Notes: a model not told the origin generated them from the sequence alone. DNA of 38,652 nt from a virus (IMGVR_UViG_2671180727_000010), one strand, 5' to 3'. Shown: positions 4,239 to 24,071, counted from the first letter of the stretch. Program-made: numbers and translations.

Positions 4239-4254
4239 AGTAAGTATATACTTA
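4239..4254. promoter_or_regulatory. 16-bp perfect palindrome GTAAGTATATACTTAC upstream of the major tail gene (putative operator)
   Basis: Perfect dyad; same palindrome with a different centre at 24056-24071. Confidence 0.45.
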
Positions 4255-4263
4255 CCAATTGAG

Positions 4264-4647
4264 TTAATTCAATAAATAGCCAGCAAATTCAACAGGAATG
4301 CCTGCTTCTATTAATGCCCCATCATTTTTGGGATAAATGATTGGCATCGCCATCGGTCGTACAAGTCGAAAATAAACACCACCAGATTCCGTTTCCTCTA
4401 CTGGAAACATCTCAATGATTTTATGGGCTTTCTCAACCGTCGTAGTAATTGACGAACCACGCACAATGATTGTGAATGATTCGTGATAAAAGCCCTGTAG
4501 CTCATGATCGATGCTGATGCCGGTATTTGGGTTAATAAGCAGGACGCCAGATTTCACATTGGCAGGCAAGTAGTGACAGAAAATGTCAGTCCCGACCGTG
4601 CCAATCTTTGCCTTCTGCATCAAACTTGCAAACGCTTCAATAAACAC
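4264..4647 (-). CDS. Phage neck / tail-terminator-like protein (function uncertain)
   Basis: Track ORF 4264..4770; likely start is GTG at 4647 preceded by GAGAGG, overlapping the stop of the upstream gene; synteny between head and tail genes. Confidence 0.4.
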   Translation of the reverse strand: MFIEAFASLMQKAKIGTVGTDIFCHYLPANVKSGVLLINPNTGISIDHELQGFYHESFTIIVRGSSITTTVEKAHKIIEMFPVEETESGGVYFRLVRPMAMPIIYPKNDGALIEAGIPVEFAGYLLN

Positions 4648-4648
4648 A

Positions 4649-5122
4649 TTAACCTCTCGTAAATCCGGCTTTTCTGGCAGCCTCAAGAATCGCTTCTGAG
4701 AACTGCTTCTCGCTAATTTCCACCGCTCTTTCCAGAAAGTGTGGCCCAACACGGGGTTTAACACCGGCAATTGGTGGGTTTGTCACGTTCTTCATTCGAG
4801 AAAGATAACCGAGTCGGTATTTACCCAGCTCCATGTACTTAGCATAGTCACCTACTTCTACGCCCGGATGCCCCTGACGTGGTTTTGCTCCAGACACAGA
4901 AAGCTCAATACGCAGCCCTGAATAACCTTCTTTAATCACCCTGGCAAAGATGGCTGTCTCCAGAGATCCGGTTTCCAGCGGGGCCATTGCACGGCTGAGA
5001 CGCTCAACCAAACGCGCCAGCTTTTCCATGTCCCGGATAAGATATCGCTTAAATGCTTTCTGGCTGTTGTTGAGTCGATTCCCCGCACGTTTGAACTGAT
5101 GCGCATCGTATTTCAGACCCAT
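4649..5122 (-). CDS. Phage head-tail joining protein (putative)
   Basis: 157-aa ORF, coupled to neighbours, in the neck region of the late operon. Confidence 0.4.
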   Translation of the reverse strand: MGLKYDAHQFKRAGNRLNNSQKAFKRYLIRDMEKLARLVERLSRAMAPLETGSLETAIFARVIKEGYSGLRIELSVSGAKPRQGHPGVEVGDYAKYMELGKYRLGYLSRMKNVTNPPIAGVKPRVGPHFLERAVEISEKQFSEAILEAARKAGFTRG

Positions 5123-5457
5123 ATATTCGCCCCTACTTCAAGATGCCCAGGTCTTCCTCGTAGCCCCCAGCGGCGATGAACACTGGACACCTTTAATTTT
5201 TGACCTTCAAGGATCAGCACATCATCAAGTTGTACAGCCGCTTCTAAAGGGACAACTAACACAGCATCAAACAGCTCCAGACTCGCCTTACCACGACTAC
5301 CAGAGCTATCAGCACGAACTGACGATTTCTCATTACTCTGTTCGAACTTAACCACGCCGACATTCGTCTTCCTGACGAATTGTAATTGCGCCTCGCCGTA
5401 AACGTTCTTTGCGCCAAAGCGGTAGATCGCAATTTCTGTTTGCCACGAAATATTCAT
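5113..5457 (-). CDS. Phage head-tail connector / completion protein (putative)
   Basis: Track ORF 5113..5553; ATG at 5457 preceded by a GAGAGAGAG Shine-Dalgarno stretch is the likely start (MNISWQTEIAIYRFG...). Confidence 0.4.
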   Translation of the reverse strand: MNISWQTEIAIYRFGAKNVYGEAQLQFVRKTNVGVVKFEQSNEKSSVRADSSGSRGKASLELFDAVLVVPLEAAVQLDDVLILEGQKLKVSSVHRRWGLRGRPGHLEVGANIWV

Positions 5458-5536
5458 GCTCTCTCTCTGTTGTTGTCGGTCGCTCTCATTACTGGCCAAA
5501 AACCCTTTCGACCAAAAGTAAATAATGCGACTGGCG

Positions 5537-6370
5537 TTACGCACGGCGAACAATCATACGGTTGTTGATGTAACTGACCAGCAAGCGCCAGGTACTGCGA
5601 GCCACATGCACGTTTGCAGCTTTACCGGTACGGTACATGTTGGTTGTTTCACCGATTGACTCTGACAAAATGCCATCCTCTCGTGCTGCGGCAACATCAT
5701 TGCCATTTGCGATCTCACACGCTTCGTTGACAACGGCAAGCATCAACGCTTCTTTGAAGTAGTCAGGGAACTCTTCAAACTTCTCCTGCGTCATCTTTTC
5801 CCAATCGACTAAATCATGCCGGTACGCTCCATCTGCTCCCCACGGAATGTCATACACATTCAGCATATTTTGAGGGCGATCGTATCGGTCAAAGTCGATA
5901 CGTAGAATTTTGCGGATTGAGAACGGTAAAGTTTTAATTCGTCTGGTAGCCTCAATGAGACGCTTGCGCATTAAGCCTTCACCATCCGACAGCAAAGTGT
6001 CCCCATTCAGCATATCGATCGCTTGCATTTGAGCATCAGCGACAGTTGCAAACGACTGTTCTGGTATCGACAGTTCAAAACTATTCAGCAGAACATACAT
6101 TTGCCGCTCTTCATGCGTCAGACCCGATGCAACAGCCTTCACAATGACGTACCGCAGATCGCGTTCTTTCTCAGAGAGCTGGTTATATTCAGCCGACACG
6201 ACAACCGGAATCGACATTTGACCGCTGGTAATTTCTAGCGGCTCGCCATCAACGAGAATAGCCCCGGTGCTGTCCTTTACTGTGTAGGTAGCAGATTCGA
6301 TATCCAGCACGTTGAAGGCAAATGAAAGGGAAACAGCTTCACCGCTACGATACGAGTCGATCTGCGCCAT
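5537..6370 (-). CDS. Phage structural protein, unknown function (277 aa)
   Basis: ORF in the late operon between the decoration-like and neck genes; no recognisable motif. Confidence 0.45.
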   Translation of the reverse strand: MAQIDSYRSGEAVSLSFAFNVLDIESATYTVKDSTGAILVDGEPLEITSGQMSIPVVVSAEYNQLSEKERDLRYVIVKAVASGLTHEERQMYVLLNSFELSIPEQSFATVADAQMQAIDMLNGDTLLSDGEGLMRKRLIEATRRIKTLPFSIRKILRIDFDRYDRPQNMLNVYDIPWGADGAYRHDLVDWEKMTQEKFEEFPDYFKEALMLAVVNEACEIANGNDVAAAREDGILSESIGETTNMYRTGKAANVHVARSTWRLLVSYINNRMIVRRA

Positions 6371-6804
6371 TACTCACCGCCTTGTGCTTTCAGGATGCCT
6401 TCAATCATCTCGACAATTCCTTTCGCTTTGACACCAACCTGATTACCAATCACACGTAGACCGGCAATGCCTTCATTGTCTGCAATTGACTCCAACTCTT
6501 CTCGTGTGAAAGTCTGGATCTGTTTGGCCGGTTCATCTGGTGTCCCACGTTTCATTGGCACAATGTCAGGTGCTGCTGGCTCGGTAATCAGGTCTGCGGT
6601 CAACTCGCCACGATCACTGTATGCGGCAGACGGAGAAACATTTTTGCCCTCGACTGTTGATGCTCGCATTGAGGCACAAATCCTTTGCTGATCGATAAAA
6701 GGCAACTCCGCTACGGACACCCCGTTCTCGAACTGAACGCCGCACAACATTCCCGAATAACCGGAAAATTGCGGTTCTAATAAAACAATTTTTGCTGGTT
6801 TCAT
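6370..6804 (-). CDS. Phage structural protein, unknown function (144 aa)
   Basis: ORF abutting the downstream gene (stop/start at 6370); late-operon synteny. Confidence 0.45.
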   Translation of the reverse strand: MKPAKIVLLEPQFSGYSGMLCGVQFENGVSVAELPFIDQQRICASMRASTVEGKNVSPSAAYSDRGELTADLITEPAAPDIVPMKRGTPDEPAKQIQTFTREELESIADNEGIAGLRVIGNQVGVKAKGIVEMIEGILKAQGGE

Positions 6805-6848
6805 AACGCATTCTCTCTACATGGGCGGCTTTCGCCGCCCAATATTGA

Positions 6849-22949: not shown

Positions 22950-22973
22950 AAGGCCACCAATGCTGGTGGCCTT
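22950..22973. repeat. Second copy of the AAGGCCACCA...TGGTGGCCTT hairpin (loop inverted)
   Basis: Reverse complement of the 22479-22502 hairpin including the loop; flanks are not inverted. Confidence 0.5.
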
Positions 22974-22978
22974 AATAA

Positions 22979-23122
22979 TTATCGCCCGATTACGCTAAGG
23001 ATCTTTTCCTCAACTGATTTGTTGTTGCGACTAAACTGCCTTGCGTATCTGATGACAGAAGAGGCGTTTCGCTTTCTGACCATCTCGGCTCTTTCCTTCA
23101 GGCGTTTCTTGAAATCGCCCAT
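22979..23122 (-). CDS. Possible small basic ORF (47 aa, MGDFKKRLKERAEMVRKRNASSVIRYARQ...)
   Basis: ATG 2 nt after the upstream stop, GGTGG 5-6 nt upstream; below the ORF-track size cut-off; hand-translated only. Confidence 0.25.
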   Translation of the reverse strand: MGDFKKRLKERAEMVRKRNASSVIRYARQFSRNNKSVEEKILSVIGR

Positions 23123-23124
23123 AT

Positions 23125-23499
23125 TTACCACCAGGCGCAGAAGGTCAGTCTGTTATTGTGAAAGTCGTGGTTCTTAATCAGATCTTCCACAAGCTCTTTC
23201 AACTGCCCCACATCATGCCAGTAACCTTCATCGTACTCCTGACTGCCGAAGAAAAAACCTTCCCGGGTAGGCAAGTACTCTTCGCAATTACTTTCGTTTA
23301 TGTGCATCAAATGAGCCTTCAGAAAACAAATGTCATTCATCGTTAATTCTAAAAGCTCACAATTTTCGACTTCACCTACGTTGCGCTCCATCCACCCAAC
23401 GAGCGCATTGAACTTACGGAAGTAAGCAACCTGCTTTCTGGATGCCTCGTTATTCAGATCGTTTTTAGGCTGCGTCTCGATATAGATATCAAGTCCCAT
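23125..23499 (-). CDS. Small acidic protein (124 aa)
   Basis: Best start is the ATG at 23499 with AAGGAA 8 nt upstream (track ORF extends to a GTG at 23541); operator at ~23558-23572. Confidence 0.5.
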   Translation of the reverse strand: MGLDIYIETQPKNDLNNEASRKQVAYFRKFNALVGWMERNVGEVENCELLELTMNDICFLKAHLMHINESNCEEYLPTREGFFFGSQEYDEGYWHDVGQLKELVEDLIKNHDFHNNRLTFCAWW

Positions 23500-23616
23500 G
23501 ATGGTTTCCTTATTAAGTTGCTTCAGTGAAATCATTTTCACAAATCAGATAAGGCAGAAAACAAATTGTTATCGGGCATAATAAAATGGCGCGGTTTACG
23601 CGCCATTTAAAGAGGA

Positions 23617-24012
23617 TTAAGCGAATACGCTTTCAGGGATTAAGGTGTCGGCAGGAATGCCAGAGGTAATGCGCAGGCCGTACTGACCAATCCAGGTAGT
23701 GTTGGTATTCAGGCTGGAGGCGAATACGGTGTTAACCATATTCATCATGGTTTCAAACACCTCTTCATCAACCTGGCGGAAGTAGTTCTCGATTTTCAGC
23801 AGCAGCGGGTCAGTTGCATCGAGAATGGACTGGTATTGAGTCGCGTACTCGCCGCCGGAGGCATCACCTTTACGCACAATCGTACTGGCCTGGACTTCGG
23901 CACCAGTTTCGGTGTTGTACGTAACAACGGTGATTTTTGCCACATTCTTACCTTCGGCGGTTTCAGAGGCATAGTAAACATCAACTGTCAGTTTTTCGCG
24001 TTTAACGGTCAT
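23617..24012 (-). CDS. Hypothetical protein (131 aa)
   Basis: ATG at 24012 with GGAGAG RBS (MTVKREKLTVDVYY...); preceded by the GTAAGTATGTACTTAC palindrome. Confidence 0.5.
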   Translation of the reverse strand: MTVKREKLTVDVYYASETAEGKNVAKITVVTYNTETGAEVQASTIVRKGDASGGEYATQYQSILDATDPLLLKIENYFRQVDEEVFETMMNMVNTVFASSLNTNTTWIGQYGLRITSGIPADTLIPESVFA

Positions 24013-24055
24013 TTCACTCTCCGTAGTGTTTTGGTTATTTTTATATTCTATGATC

Positions 24056-24071
24056 GTAAGTATGTACTTAC
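24056..24071. promoter_or_regulatory. 16-bp palindrome GTAAGTATGTACTTAC (putative operator)
   Basis: Differs from the 4239-4254 palindrome only at the central base pair. Confidence 0.45.

What the first reader, a model, noticed from the sequence alone, without database searches (positions are those of the whole stretch)
4239..24071. Second operator family: GTAAGTAT-N-TACTTAC palindrome upstream of the major tail gene and of an unrelated 131-aa gene
Two 16-bp palindromes 20 kb apart differ only at the centre (4239-4254 and 24056-24071). Weaker relatives sit in the divergent ParB/helicase promoter (16531-16546), upstream of terS (~13279-13295) and at ~37268. The direct repeats at 32018 and 32191 carry the same GTAAGTAT half-site. 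This suggests a second dimeric regulator acting on both flanks of metG, which hints that the phage DNA on the two sides is related or co-regulated.
Basis: seen in the sequence. Interest (0 to 1): 0.5.

Follow-up and report, generated by a model that had tools for sequence, protein, structure and literature searches.

The report
Phage-plasmid-wide 20-bp palindromic operator family
The two palindromes are real. They belong to a family of about 20-30 conserved 20-bp protein-binding sites that overlap promoters of the lytic genes in SSU5-like phage-plasmids, and they are most likely operators of a phage repressor: a new example of a familiar kind of control.

Summary
The interpretation needs re-framing.

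- **Source.** The window is one contiguous piece of an SSU5/pHCM2-like phage-plasmid. metG is a phage-borne MetRS, so "both flanks of metG" are simply the same genome.
- **Family.** The two 16-mers are mid- to low-scoring members of a 20-bp symmetric family, ATARGTAAGT·ACTTACYTAT. The window holds 7 sites at 15 bits or more, against 0.1 in shuffles.
- **Spread.** Whole genomes hold 18-31 sites: E. coli Cyrano, Salmonella SSU5, Klebsiella pJN2-26 and Y. pestis pMT1. They sit at orthologous intergenic positions while the flanks diverge. Multi-site loci occur only in SSU5-like elements.
- **DNA site, not RNA.** The half-sites vary independently, which points to a protein site on DNA rather than an RNA hairpin.
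- **Promoter overlap.** Sites lie only among lytic-direction genes. They overlap sigma70-like promoters pointing in the lytic direction, at registers that differ from site to site.
- **Mechanism.** This fits occlusion by a dimeric repressor. The best candidate is an Xre-like protein encoded outside the window, expressed in lysogens, whose own promoter carries a conserved core copy. A ParB/Spo0J-like protein in the window is the main rival binder.

I found no description of the motif in the literature searched. It is a new member of a known kind.

The parts
4240..4259 (-). Operator site A. Read on the minus strand it is ATTGGTAAGTATATACTTAC.
   Evidence: 18.2 bits. Conserved in Cyrano, PhiR41_1, SSU5, pJN2-26, pMT1 and IMG/VR contigs.
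4267..4272 (-). Predicted -35 hexamer TTGAAT of the tail-gene promoter.
   Evidence: TTGAAT-18-TATACT. TTGAAT or TTGAAC is conserved in all 10 orthologous sequences. This is a prediction; no TSS has been mapped.
4243..4248 (-). Predicted -10 hexamer TATACT, lying inside the palindrome.
   Evidence: 11.4 bits in each of the three genomes.
4220..4234 (-). Small hairpin in the tail-gene leader (GCGCA-atgaa-TGCGT).
   Evidence: 4 of 5 pairs keep pairing through changes on both sides across lineages.
4194..4210 (-). Invariant hairpin GGAAAA-AGGAG-TTTTCC that presents the Shine-Dalgarno sequence in its loop.
   Evidence: There is no variation, so the structure is not independently supported.
3443..4189 (-). 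Major tail (Ig-domain) protein gene. The start is taken at the ATG 4189-4187, which follows the AGGAG.
   Evidence: CYRAN_12.
24056..24075 (-). Operator site B. Read on the minus strand it is TATTGTAAGTACATACTTAC.
   Evidence: 9.9 bits. The orthologues TATTGTAAGTACATACCTAT (SSU5) and TATTGTAAGTACTTACCTAC (Klebsiella) fit the 20-mer frame.
24068..24073 (-). Predicted -35 hexamer TTGTAA, formed by the left half of the operator.
   Evidence: Read from the sequence. Conserved in all 7 unique orthologues.
24045..24050 (-). Predicted -10 hexamer TAGAAT, 17 bp after the -35.
   Evidence: Read from the sequences. The orthologues are TAAAAT, TAATAT and TAGTAT at the same spacing.
24077..24103 (-). Intrinsic terminator of the upstream gene (GCCCCG...CGGGGC followed by a T run), immediately before site B.
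   Evidence: conserved.
23617..24012 (-). 131-aa gene of unknown function (phrog_2473) downstream of site B.
7815..7834 (-). Operator between the major capsid gene and the Ig-domain gene. A terminator-like hairpin follows at 7792-7808.
   Evidence: (20.7 bits). The Klebsiella orthologue is a perfect consensus.
9731..9750 (-). Operator inside the 3' end of the portal gene. It fills the spacer and -10 of TTGAAA(9756-9751)-17-TATGAT(9733-9728).
   Evidence: 26.1 bits; best sigma70-like match in window 1-20000, 10 of 12. The 20-mer is identical in four lineages while flanking codons vary.
11238..11257 (-). Operator in the 26-bp gap between the large terminase and portal genes.
   Evidence: 23.8 bits. 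Orthologues.
16529..16548 (-). Operator in the divergent region between the ParB-like and UvsW-helicase genes, next to a TATAAT hexamer.
   Evidence: (21.4 bits).
37272..37291 (-). Operator at the stop codon of the DUF4942 methylase gene, upstream of the Ead/Ea22-like gene.
   Evidence: 24.6 bits. Orthologues.
13279..13298 (.). Motif-like centre of a 55-bp long-stem palindrome upstream of terS. Membership is doubtful.
   Evidence: (15.5 bits).
15831..16511 (-). ParB/Spo0J-like protein (ParB_N domain plus HTH region). It is the rival candidate binder and is encoded directly downstream of the site at 16529.
   Evidence: ParB_N, 3.2e-13; Spo0J 1vz0, residues 7-154, E 2.7e-9.

Best explanation
The two palindromes belong to a genome-wide family of 20-bp symmetric operators, ATARGTAAGT·ACTTACYTAT with A/T-rich flanks, found in SSU5/pHCM2/pMT1-type phage-plasmids. 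A phage-encoded dimeric DNA-binding protein binds each site and blocks host sigma70 RNA polymerase, because each site overlaps the -35, spacer, -10 or start region of a promoter pointing in the lytic direction. The many lytic transcription units, early and late, are thereby kept silent in the plasmid-prophage state.

The most likely binder is the Xre-type HTH protein next to the integrase (CYRAN_45 in phage Cyrano). It is encoded outside this window. It would also autoregulate through a weaker, core-only copy at its own transcription start.

Shown: the family exists, is enriched, is conserved, behaves as a DNA site rather than an RNA structure, is restricted to lytic-direction intergenic regions, and coincides with directional promoter-like sequence.

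Inferred: that the effect is repression rather than activation, and the identity of the binder.
For: 1. Enrichment. Window: 7 positions at 15 bits or more against 0.1 in shuffles. Cyrano: 22 sites within 5 mismatches of 22 against 0.1. 28 of 31 profile sites are intergenic, although only 13% of the genome is intergenic.

2. Conservation. SSU5 has 28 sites against 1.3 in shuffles. pJN2-26 has 26 against 1.6. pMT1 has 18 against 1.9. Sites sit at orthologous positions with diverged flanks.

3. Lineage specificity. Multi-site loci in IMG/VR are all SSU5-like.

4. DNA site, not RNA. Both halves carry equal information, and pairing between the halves is no better than in column shuffles.

5. Promoter overlap. 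In 71 sites from three genomes, the best overlapping sigma70-like promoter scores 7.65 bits in the lytic direction and 5.48 in reverse (55 against 16 sites; Wilcoxon 4.6e-8; orthologous sites are not independent). Within Cyrano alone, motif-bearing gaps score 7.0 against 5.3 (p=0.015), while motif-free gaps score 4.6 against 4.75.

6. Variable register. The register differs between sites but is conserved between orthologues. Examples: TTGAAA-17-TATGAT with the motif as spacer; TTGAAT-18-TATACT with the -10 inside the motif; TTGTAA-17-TAGAAT with the -35 inside the motif.

7. Expression. The genes reported as highly expressed in Cyrano lysogens are mostly opposite-strand genes without sites. 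None of the late genes appears in that list, despite a near-consensus internal promoter (PMC9928086 Table 1).

8. Candidate binder. CYRAN_45 is expressed in lysogens. Its promoter, TTTACA-16-TAATAT, is followed by the core GGTAAG(C/T)ACTTACC in E. coli, Klebsiella and Yersinia. Its HTH segment is conserved at 56% overall identity. Its homologues are distributed across plasmids like the rest of the element.
Against: - No binding, TSS or expression data exist for any site. All promoters are consensus predictions.
- Several sites have no convincing -35, for example TerL|portal and the site upstream of the helicase operon.
- At four junctions the order is motif, then terminator-like hairpin, then gene (MCP|Ig, M|L, J|fiber, RuvC|RNR). 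That is an odd place for a promoter.
- Phage SSU5 lacks CYRAN_45 yet keeps all its sites. This is explained, by inference, as a recent deletion: every one of 822 plasmid relatives carries extra DNA there, and some are 99% identical.
- Direct repression of late genes by a prophage repressor is unusual.
- The UvsW operon next to site 16529 includes a gene reported as expressed in lysogens.
- The repressor gene is not in the window.
Confidence: 0.6

Rival explanations
1. The sites are loading or binding sites for the ParB/Spo0J/Noc-like protein encoded at 15831-16511, possibly together with its paralogue at 15163-15831. On this view the protein is a KorB- or Noc-like global silencer or DNA organiser that recognises a dispersed palindrome. 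Transcriptional effects could then act at a distance and need not involve promoter occlusion.
For: The protein has a ParB_N domain and aligns to Spo0J 1vz0 across the N-terminal and HTH regions, residues 7-154, E 2.7e-9. It is a core gene, 87-88% identical in SSU5 and Klebsiella, which matches the invariance of the motif. It is also present in SSU5, which lacks CYRAN_45. A strong site lies directly upstream of its operon. From general knowledge: ParB-family proteins (parS, Noc NBS, KorB OB) recognise 13-16-bp palindromes, and KorB and Noc use many dispersed sites.
Against: It is transcribed in the lytic direction and is not among the genes reported as expressed in lysogens. The 20-26-bp site is longer than typical ParB sites. 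Nothing links it to the core copy at the CYRAN_45 promoter. No ParA partner is adjacent; ABC-type ATPases are.
Confidence: 0.17
2. The motif is a positive promoter element. It would be the binding site of a phage-encoded activator that replaces -35 recognition at middle or late promoters, as the 9-bp inverted repeat does for Lpa at P1 late promoters.
For: P1 late promoters are AAGTnACTT, then 4 nt, then the -10. The core here is AAGT·ACTT, and T18-A19 with T23 at 60% resembles a -10 at a fixed distance. Many sites lack a good -35. SSU5, which lacks the putative repressor, keeps the sites. Sites precede only lytic genes.
Against: The T23 preference is mirrored by A at position -2, so it is part of the palindrome and is not directional. 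The predicted promoter register varies from site to site. Several sites lie within near-consensus -35/-10 pairs at optimal spacing, which would need no activator. A core copy lies at about +2 of the lysogen-expressed regulator's promoter, a repressing position. tblastn finds no Lpa homologue. The same motif serves both early replication genes and late structural genes.
Confidence: 0.15
3. The palindromes act at the RNA level, as hairpins for processing, stability or termination, or they are chance AT-rich palindromes.
For: Palindromic DNA can form hairpins in RNA. Several sites lie at gene ends, next to terminator-like hairpins.
Against: There is no excess of Watson-Crick or G-U pairing between the halves over column shuffles at any of the 10 positions. 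The stems would be AT-rich with no loop and no U tract. Conservation is by base identity, not by pairing. Chance is excluded by shuffles and by orthologous conservation.
Confidence: 0.03

Closest known systems
Phage P1 C1 repressor and its dispersed operators (another E. coli phage-plasmid)
   Same: One prophage regulator controls many separate transcription units through operators scattered over a roughly 100-kb plasmid-prophage genome. The operators overlap sigma70 promoters at varying registers (P1 annotation AF234172).
   Different: P1 operators are asymmetric 17-bp sites annotated 'monovalent', whereas these are 20-bp palindromes. In P1 the late genes are reached indirectly through Lpa. 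Here the same motif also lies within the structural and lysis gene block. There is no sequence relationship between the motifs.
P1 late promoters (Lpa box AAGTnACTT, 4 nt, then -10)
   Same: A short palindrome with AAGT/ACTT half-sites lies in the spacer just upstream of a -10-like hexamer, at many promoters of a phage-plasmid.
   Different: The unit here is 20 bp rather than 9 bp, with no central N. The distance to the best -10 is not fixed. Some promoters have good -35 boxes. There is no Lpa homologue. A copy lies at the start site of a lysogen-expressed regulator gene.
Mycobacteriophage L5 gp71 'stoperators' (from general knowledge)
   Same: About 20-30 repressor sites lie in short intergenic gaps across both early and late operons of a temperate phage, silencing the prophage globally.
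   Different: Stoperators are asymmetric 13-bp sites that act in one orientation by blocking elongation. These sites are symmetric and coincide with promoter-like sequence.
KorB (ParB family) and its OB operators on IncP plasmids; Noc and its NBS sites (from general knowledge)
   Same: A dispersed palindromic site is bound by a ParB-fold protein that regulates or organises a whole replicon. A ParB/Spo0J-like gene lies next to one site here.
   Different: No evidence yet links the ParB-like protein to the motif. The site is longer. Sites cluster at lytic promoters rather than at plasmid-maintenance genes.

Membership tests
Dispersed operator regulon of a temperate-phage repressor (functional class) | Many copies of one motif, far above chance, concentrated in non-coding DNA | tested here: met
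   28 of 31 Cyrano sites are intergenic, against 13% intergenic sequence.
Dispersed operator regulon of a temperate-phage repressor (functional class) | Motif conserved at orthologous positions in diverged relatives while flanks change | tested here: met
   (Salmonella, Klebsiella, Yersinia).
Dispersed operator regulon of a temperate-phage repressor (functional class) | Sites overlap core promoter elements of the regulated genes | tested here: inconclusive
   There is a directional excess of sigma70-like promoters over the sites, with conserved examples. The promoters are predictions only; no TSS data exist.
Dispersed operator regulon of a temperate-phage repressor (functional class) | A repressor expressed in the lysogen binds the sites | not testable with these tools
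   The candidate CYRAN_45 is lysogen-expressed (PMC9928086) and carries a conserved core site at its own promoter. Binding has not been tested.
P1 Lpa-dependent late promoter | 9-bp inverted repeat AAGTnACTT | tested here: not met
   P1 boxes were extracted. Here the core is AAGTACTT with no central base, embedded in a 20-bp palindrome.
P1 Lpa-dependent late promoter | Fixed 4-nt distance to a -10 hexamer and no -35 | tested here: not met
   The register of the best -10 varies between sites. Several sites have TTGAAA, TTGAAT or TTGTAA -35 boxes at 17-18 bp.
P1 Lpa-dependent late promoter | Lpa homologue encoded by the element | tested here: not met
   tblastn of P1 Lpa against Cyrano, SSU5 and the window gave a best E-value of 0.67.
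L5-type stoperator | Asymmetric site with a single orientation relative to transcription | tested here: not met
   The motif is symmetric, with equal information in both halves.
ParB-family operator or parS-like site (KorB/Noc type) | Palindromic site, plus a ParB-fold protein with an HTH encoded by the element | tested here: met
ParB-family operator or parS-like site (KorB/Noc type) | The ParB-like protein binds these sites (CTP-dependent loading) | not testable with these tools
   No data.
Intrinsic terminator or structured RNA element | Pairing maintained by compensatory change; G+C-rich stem and U tract | tested here: not met
   One search shows no covariation. The consensus is AT-rich and has no loop.
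Xre/cI-type HTH repressor (candidate binder CYRAN_45) | Recognisable HTH_3/HTH_19-type domain | tested here: inconclusive
   Pfam HTH_19 scores 19.7 bits, below the 30.2 cut-off. PHROG 8 'transcriptional regulator' scores 1.3e-11. No PDB sequence match.

The most novel reading that the evidence does not exclude
The 20-bp palindromes are loading sites for the phage-encoded ParB/Spo0J-like protein. On this reading the protein, together with its paralogue and the adjacent ABC-type ATPases, acts as a KorB- or Noc-like clamp that silences or organises the whole lytic genome of SSU5/pHCM2/pMT1-type phage-plasmids. That would be a ParB-family global transcription regulator in a phage. The Xre-like protein would then be only one of its targets.
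Probability: 0.15. Interest if true: 0.65.

Novelty: new member of a known kind. Interest (0 to 1): 0.42.

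Why it matters
SSU5-like phage-plasmids are among the most abundant phage-plasmids in Klebsiella, Enterobacter, E. coli and Salmonella. They carry resistance genes (PMC9600943), and the group includes S. Typhi pHCM2-type and Y. pestis pMT1-type plasmids. I found nothing in the searchable literature on how they control lysis and lysogeny.

A single conserved 20-bp operator marking about 20-30 lytic promoters gives three things. It provides a direct experimental handle through EMSA, ChIP and reporter fusions. It names a candidate repressor and a candidate rival binder. 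It offers a simple sequence signature for annotating promoters and regulons in hundreds of such plasmids.

Conceptually it is another dispersed-operator regulon, so it refines what is known rather than overturning it.

Tried and rejected
- **Direct repeats at 32017 and 32190.** They share only TAAGTAT and have no second half-site. Rejected as members.
- **RNA hairpin or terminator reading.** No covariation between the halves. Rejected.
- **Lpa homologue.** tblastn of P1 Lpa against Cyrano, SSU5 and the window found nothing.
- **Fixed -10 at motif positions 18-23.** The T23 preference is mirrored on the other side, so it is not directional.
- **Motif outside SSU5-like phages.** An IMG/VR scan with GTAAGTACTTACYTAT gave only single hits, most simply read as chance, in unrelated low-GC contigs.
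- **Pfam, PHROGs and PDB sequence searches on small candidate regulators.** The proteins tried were the 88-aa protein before terS, CYRAN_37, Cra and the 216-aa protein at 20051-20701. None gave a DNA-binding assignment.
- **Literature.** Searches for the motif strings, and for SSU5 with repressor, operator or promoter, found no description. The P1 genome paper (PMC523184) and a 2026 preprint could not be opened.
- **'SSU5 lacks the repressor, so the motif cannot be its operator'.** Weakened by showing that SSU5 carries a deletion relative to all 822 plasmid relatives, some of them 99% identical.

Full report
**What the window is**

The 38.6-kb window is one contiguous stretch of an SSU5-like phage-plasmid. 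Bases 98-25000 match 'Escherichia phage CMS-2020a' CP053388 at 98.6%. They also match phage Cyrano (pLF82) and PhiR41_1. The remainder matches the same records.

The DNA on 'both flanks of metG' is therefore the same genome. The first 100 bases or so are the end of IS629, inserted in the tape-measure gene.

Minus-strand genes in the window run in the lytic direction: tape measure, tail, head, portal, terminase, ParB-like genes and accessory genes. A block on the plus strand (UvsW helicase and others) runs the other way.

**Checking the observation**

- GTAAGTATATACTTAC lies at 4240-4255, one base from the stated position. GTAAGTATGTACTTAC lies at 24056-24071.
- With up to 3 mismatches there are 15 strand-matches against 0.53 expected, and no shuffle reaches that number.
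- Site A lies between the tail-completion gene and the Ig-domain major tail gene (ATG at 4189).
- Site B lies between an intrinsic terminator (24077-24103) and a 131-aa gene of unknown function (ATG at 24012).

**The real unit is a 20-bp palindrome**

Scanning the complete Cyrano genome showed that the GTAAGTA core is part of a longer element. An iterated symmetric profile gives A-T-A-R-G-T-A-A-G-T | A-C-T-T-A-C-Y-T-A-T, with weakly A/T-rich flanks.

- Cyrano has 31 non-overlapping sites at 10 bits or more. Of these, 28 are intergenic, although only 13% of the genome is intergenic.
- With a consensus-mismatch count, 22 sites fall within 5 mismatches of 22, against 0.1 in shuffles.
- In the window the profile finds these sites:

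| Start | Bits |
|---|---|
| 4240 | 18.2 |
| 7815 | 20.7 |
| 9731 | 26.1 |
| 11238 | 23.8 |
| 13279 | 15.5 |
| 16529 | 21.4 |
| 24056 | 9.9 |
| 37272 | 24.6 |

- Seven positions in the window score 15 bits or more, against 0.1 in shuffles.

The 'weaker relatives' are closer to the consensus, and three sites were missed. The direct repeats at 32017 and 32190 are not members. The 13279 match is the AT-rich centre of a separate 55-bp long-stem palindrome that occurs three times per genome.

**Conservation**

| Genome | Sites at 12 bits or more | Mean in shuffles |
|---|---|---|
| Salmonella phage SSU5 | 28 | 1.3 |
| Klebsiella phage pJN2-26 | 26 | 1.6 |
| Y. pestis pMT1 | 18 | 1.9 |

The sites occupy the same intergenic positions in each genome, and the flanks differ. 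Alignments of the two sites in question show islands of identity over the motif and the predicted promoter hexamers, with variable sequence between them.

The perfect 16-bp symmetry is not conserved. Site A reads GTATGTATATACTTAC in pJN2-26 and GTAAGTATACACTTAA in PhiR41_1. Site B reads GTAAGTACATACCTAT in SSU5 and GTAAGTACTTACCTAC in pJN2-26. All of these fit the 20-mer frame.

A scan of IMG/VR with GTAAGTACTTACYTAT returned 105 loci. Every locus with several profile sites is SSU5-like, and unrelated contigs have at most one or two. The motif is therefore specific to this lineage.

**DNA site or RNA structure?**

The information content is symmetric across the two halves. At none of the ten mirror-position pairs is Watson-Crick or G-U pairing more frequent than in column shuffles. 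For example, positions 4/17 show G-C 13, A-T 12, A-C 9 and G-T 6.

The halves vary independently around a fixed base identity. That is the behaviour of a dimeric protein site on double-stranded DNA, not of a hairpin.

**Where the sites lie**

All strong sites lie between or upstream of lytic-direction genes.

- Early functions: helicase and primase operon, SSB, SbcCD, RNR, ThyX, Dam.
- Late functions: TerL|portal, the portal 3' end, MCP|Ig, tail, M|L, J|fiber and holin.

The genes reported as highly expressed in Cyrano lysogens are mostly opposite-strand genes. They include the putative repressor CYRAN_45, toxin-antitoxin pairs and the MinD-like gene. None of their upstream regions has a strong site. 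The structural genes are not in that list (PMC9928086 Table 1).

**Relation to promoters**

The best sigma70-like match in window 1-20000 is TTGAAA-17-TATGAT at 9756-9728, with the motif filling the spacer and the -10. It lies in the portal coding sequence. TTGAAA plus the 20-mer is identical in E. coli, Salmonella, Klebsiella and Yersinia, while neighbouring codons vary.

- Site A has a conserved TTGAAT/C-18-TATACT, with the -10 inside the palindrome.
- Site B has a conserved TTGTAA-17-TAGAAT/TAATAT/TAGTAT, with the -35 formed by the left half and the rest of the motif in the spacer.

Because the motif is symmetric, comparing the two directions controls for its own contribution to any promoter score.

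- Over 71 sites in three genomes, the best overlapping promoter scores 7.65 bits in the lytic direction and 5.48 in reverse (55 against 16 sites, Wilcoxon 4.6e-8). Orthologous sites are not independent.
- Within Cyrano alone, motif-bearing gaps score 7.0 against 5.3 (p=0.015). Motif-free gaps between lytic genes score 4.6 against 4.75.

The motif therefore marks directional promoter-like sequence. The register differs from site to site but is the same in orthologues. Variable register over -35, spacer, -10 or start site is what one expects of an occluding repressor. A positive element that substitutes for -35 would need a fixed register.

**Comparison with P1**

P1 late promoters, taken from the curated record AF234172, are AAGT(G/T)ACTT, then 4 nt, then the -10. 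The core here, AAGT·ACTT, and its position next to a -10-like TAT are reminiscent of that arrangement.

Several features do not match. The unit is 20 bp, the distance to the best -10 is not fixed, and several promoters have good -35 boxes. There is no Lpa homologue: tblastn gave a best E-value of 0.67. I therefore treat the Lpa-like activator model as a rival, not as the best explanation.

**Who binds?**

*Candidate 1, the Xre-like protein.* This is the 128-aa Xre-like protein next to the integrase, CYRAN_45, which is outside the window.

- It is expressed in lysogens.
- It scores weakly against HTH_19 and matches PHROG 8 'transcriptional regulator'.
- Its predicted promoter, TTTACA-16-TAATAT, is followed at about +2 by the motif core GGTAAG(C/T)ACTTACC. 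That arrangement is conserved in E. coli, Klebsiella and Yersinia, although the proteins are only 56-65% identical. A weak, core-only operator at the start site is the classical arrangement for negative autoregulation.
- The HTH segment (IGYKN.N.LSLIK.G.IPLP) is conserved.
- Homologues occur in the same numbers and the same genera of plasmids as the ParB-like core gene, and in the window's closest relative.
- Phage SSU5 lacks it. However, SSU5 carries a deletion there relative to all 822 plasmid relatives, some 99% identical. This suggests a recent virulent derivative, so retention of the operators in SSU5 is not strong counter-evidence.

*Candidate 2, the ParB-like protein.* This is encoded in the window at 15831-16511, directly downstream of site 16529.

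- It has a ParB_N domain and aligns to Spo0J across the N-terminal and HTH regions.
- It is highly conserved in all relatives, including SSU5.
- A KorB- or Noc-like role is possible.

**Weaknesses**

- No binding or TSS data exist.
- Some sites lack a credible -35.
- At four junctions a terminator-like hairpin lies between the motif and the next gene.
- A prophage repressor acting directly inside the late operon is unusual.
- The binder is inferred.

**Verdict**

The finding is real and highly non-random. It is part of a conserved, lineage-specific regulon of 20-bp palindromic operators.

The most likely mechanism is promoter occlusion by a dimeric phage repressor. My confidence is about 0.6 for repression and about 0.4 for CYRAN_45 specifically as the binder.

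It is a new member of a known kind of system, the dispersed phage or plasmid operator regulon. I found no description of it in the literature I could search. Interest is moderate.

Noticed in passing
window 1-102: The first 100 bases or so are 99% identical to the end of IS629. The phage sequence then begins inside the tail tape-measure gene, equivalent to Cyrano position 13172 within TMP 10565-15142. The tape-measure gene of this copy therefore appears to be interrupted, and the element may be defective for tail assembly.
   Followed up: partly
window 13260-13320; also Cyrano 31160-31215 and 78085-78140; SSU5 33459, 78305, 103264: A 55-bp long-stem palindrome, CCTGCTTCYGTATATA...(AT-rich, often AAGTnACTT)...TATATACRGAAGCAGG, usually followed by T-rich sequence. 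There are three copies per genome, one just upstream of terS. It looks like a long-hairpin bidirectional terminator. The centre of the terS-proximal copy reads AAGTAACTT, AAGTGACTT or AAGTCACTT in different lineages, which is the same pattern as the P1 Lpa box.
   Followed up: partly
window 4194-4234 (minus strand): The leader of the major tail gene has a small hairpin in which 4 of 5 pairs are kept through changes on both sides across E. coli, Salmonella and Klebsiella lineages. Next to it is an invariant hairpin that displays the Shine-Dalgarno sequence in its loop. If transcription starts at the predicted promoter, the first hairpin may be a 5'-terminal stabiliser.
   Followed up: partly
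window 18852-19454 (+): A 200-aa protein matches Pfam Flag1_repress (FljA, repressor of phase-1 flagellin) at E 2.5e-84. It is conserved in SSU5, pJN2-26 and pMT1 and is transcribed opposite to the lytic genes. It may be a phage-plasmid factor acting on host flagellin expression.
   Followed up: no
window 13614-16511 (minus strand): Two paralogous ParB_N-domain proteins are followed by an ABC-type ATPase and an ATPase/acyltransferase-like protein, then an 88-aa protein, directly upstream of terS. This is a conserved module of unknown role in all relatives examined.
   Followed up: partly
Cyrano whole genome (L002-L004): The Chi octamer GCTGGTGG and its complement are among the most over-represented 8-mers, with 13 and 12 copies against about 1 expected.
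   Followed up: no
SSU5 (L005) about 42600-42760, compared with Cyrano genes 40-46: Phage SSU5 lacks the whole accessory block that holds the integrase and the Xre-like regulator. All 822 related plasmids carry extra DNA at that point, and some are 99% identical to SSU5 in the flank. SSU5 looks like a recent deletion derivative of a plasmid prophage.
   Followed up: partly
window 27903-29936 (-) and 30094-31194 (+): The element carries its own MetRS and a MinD/Mrp-like ATPase. The latter is reported as expressed in Cyrano lysogens (PMC9928086). Neither has the operator upstream.
   Followed up: no
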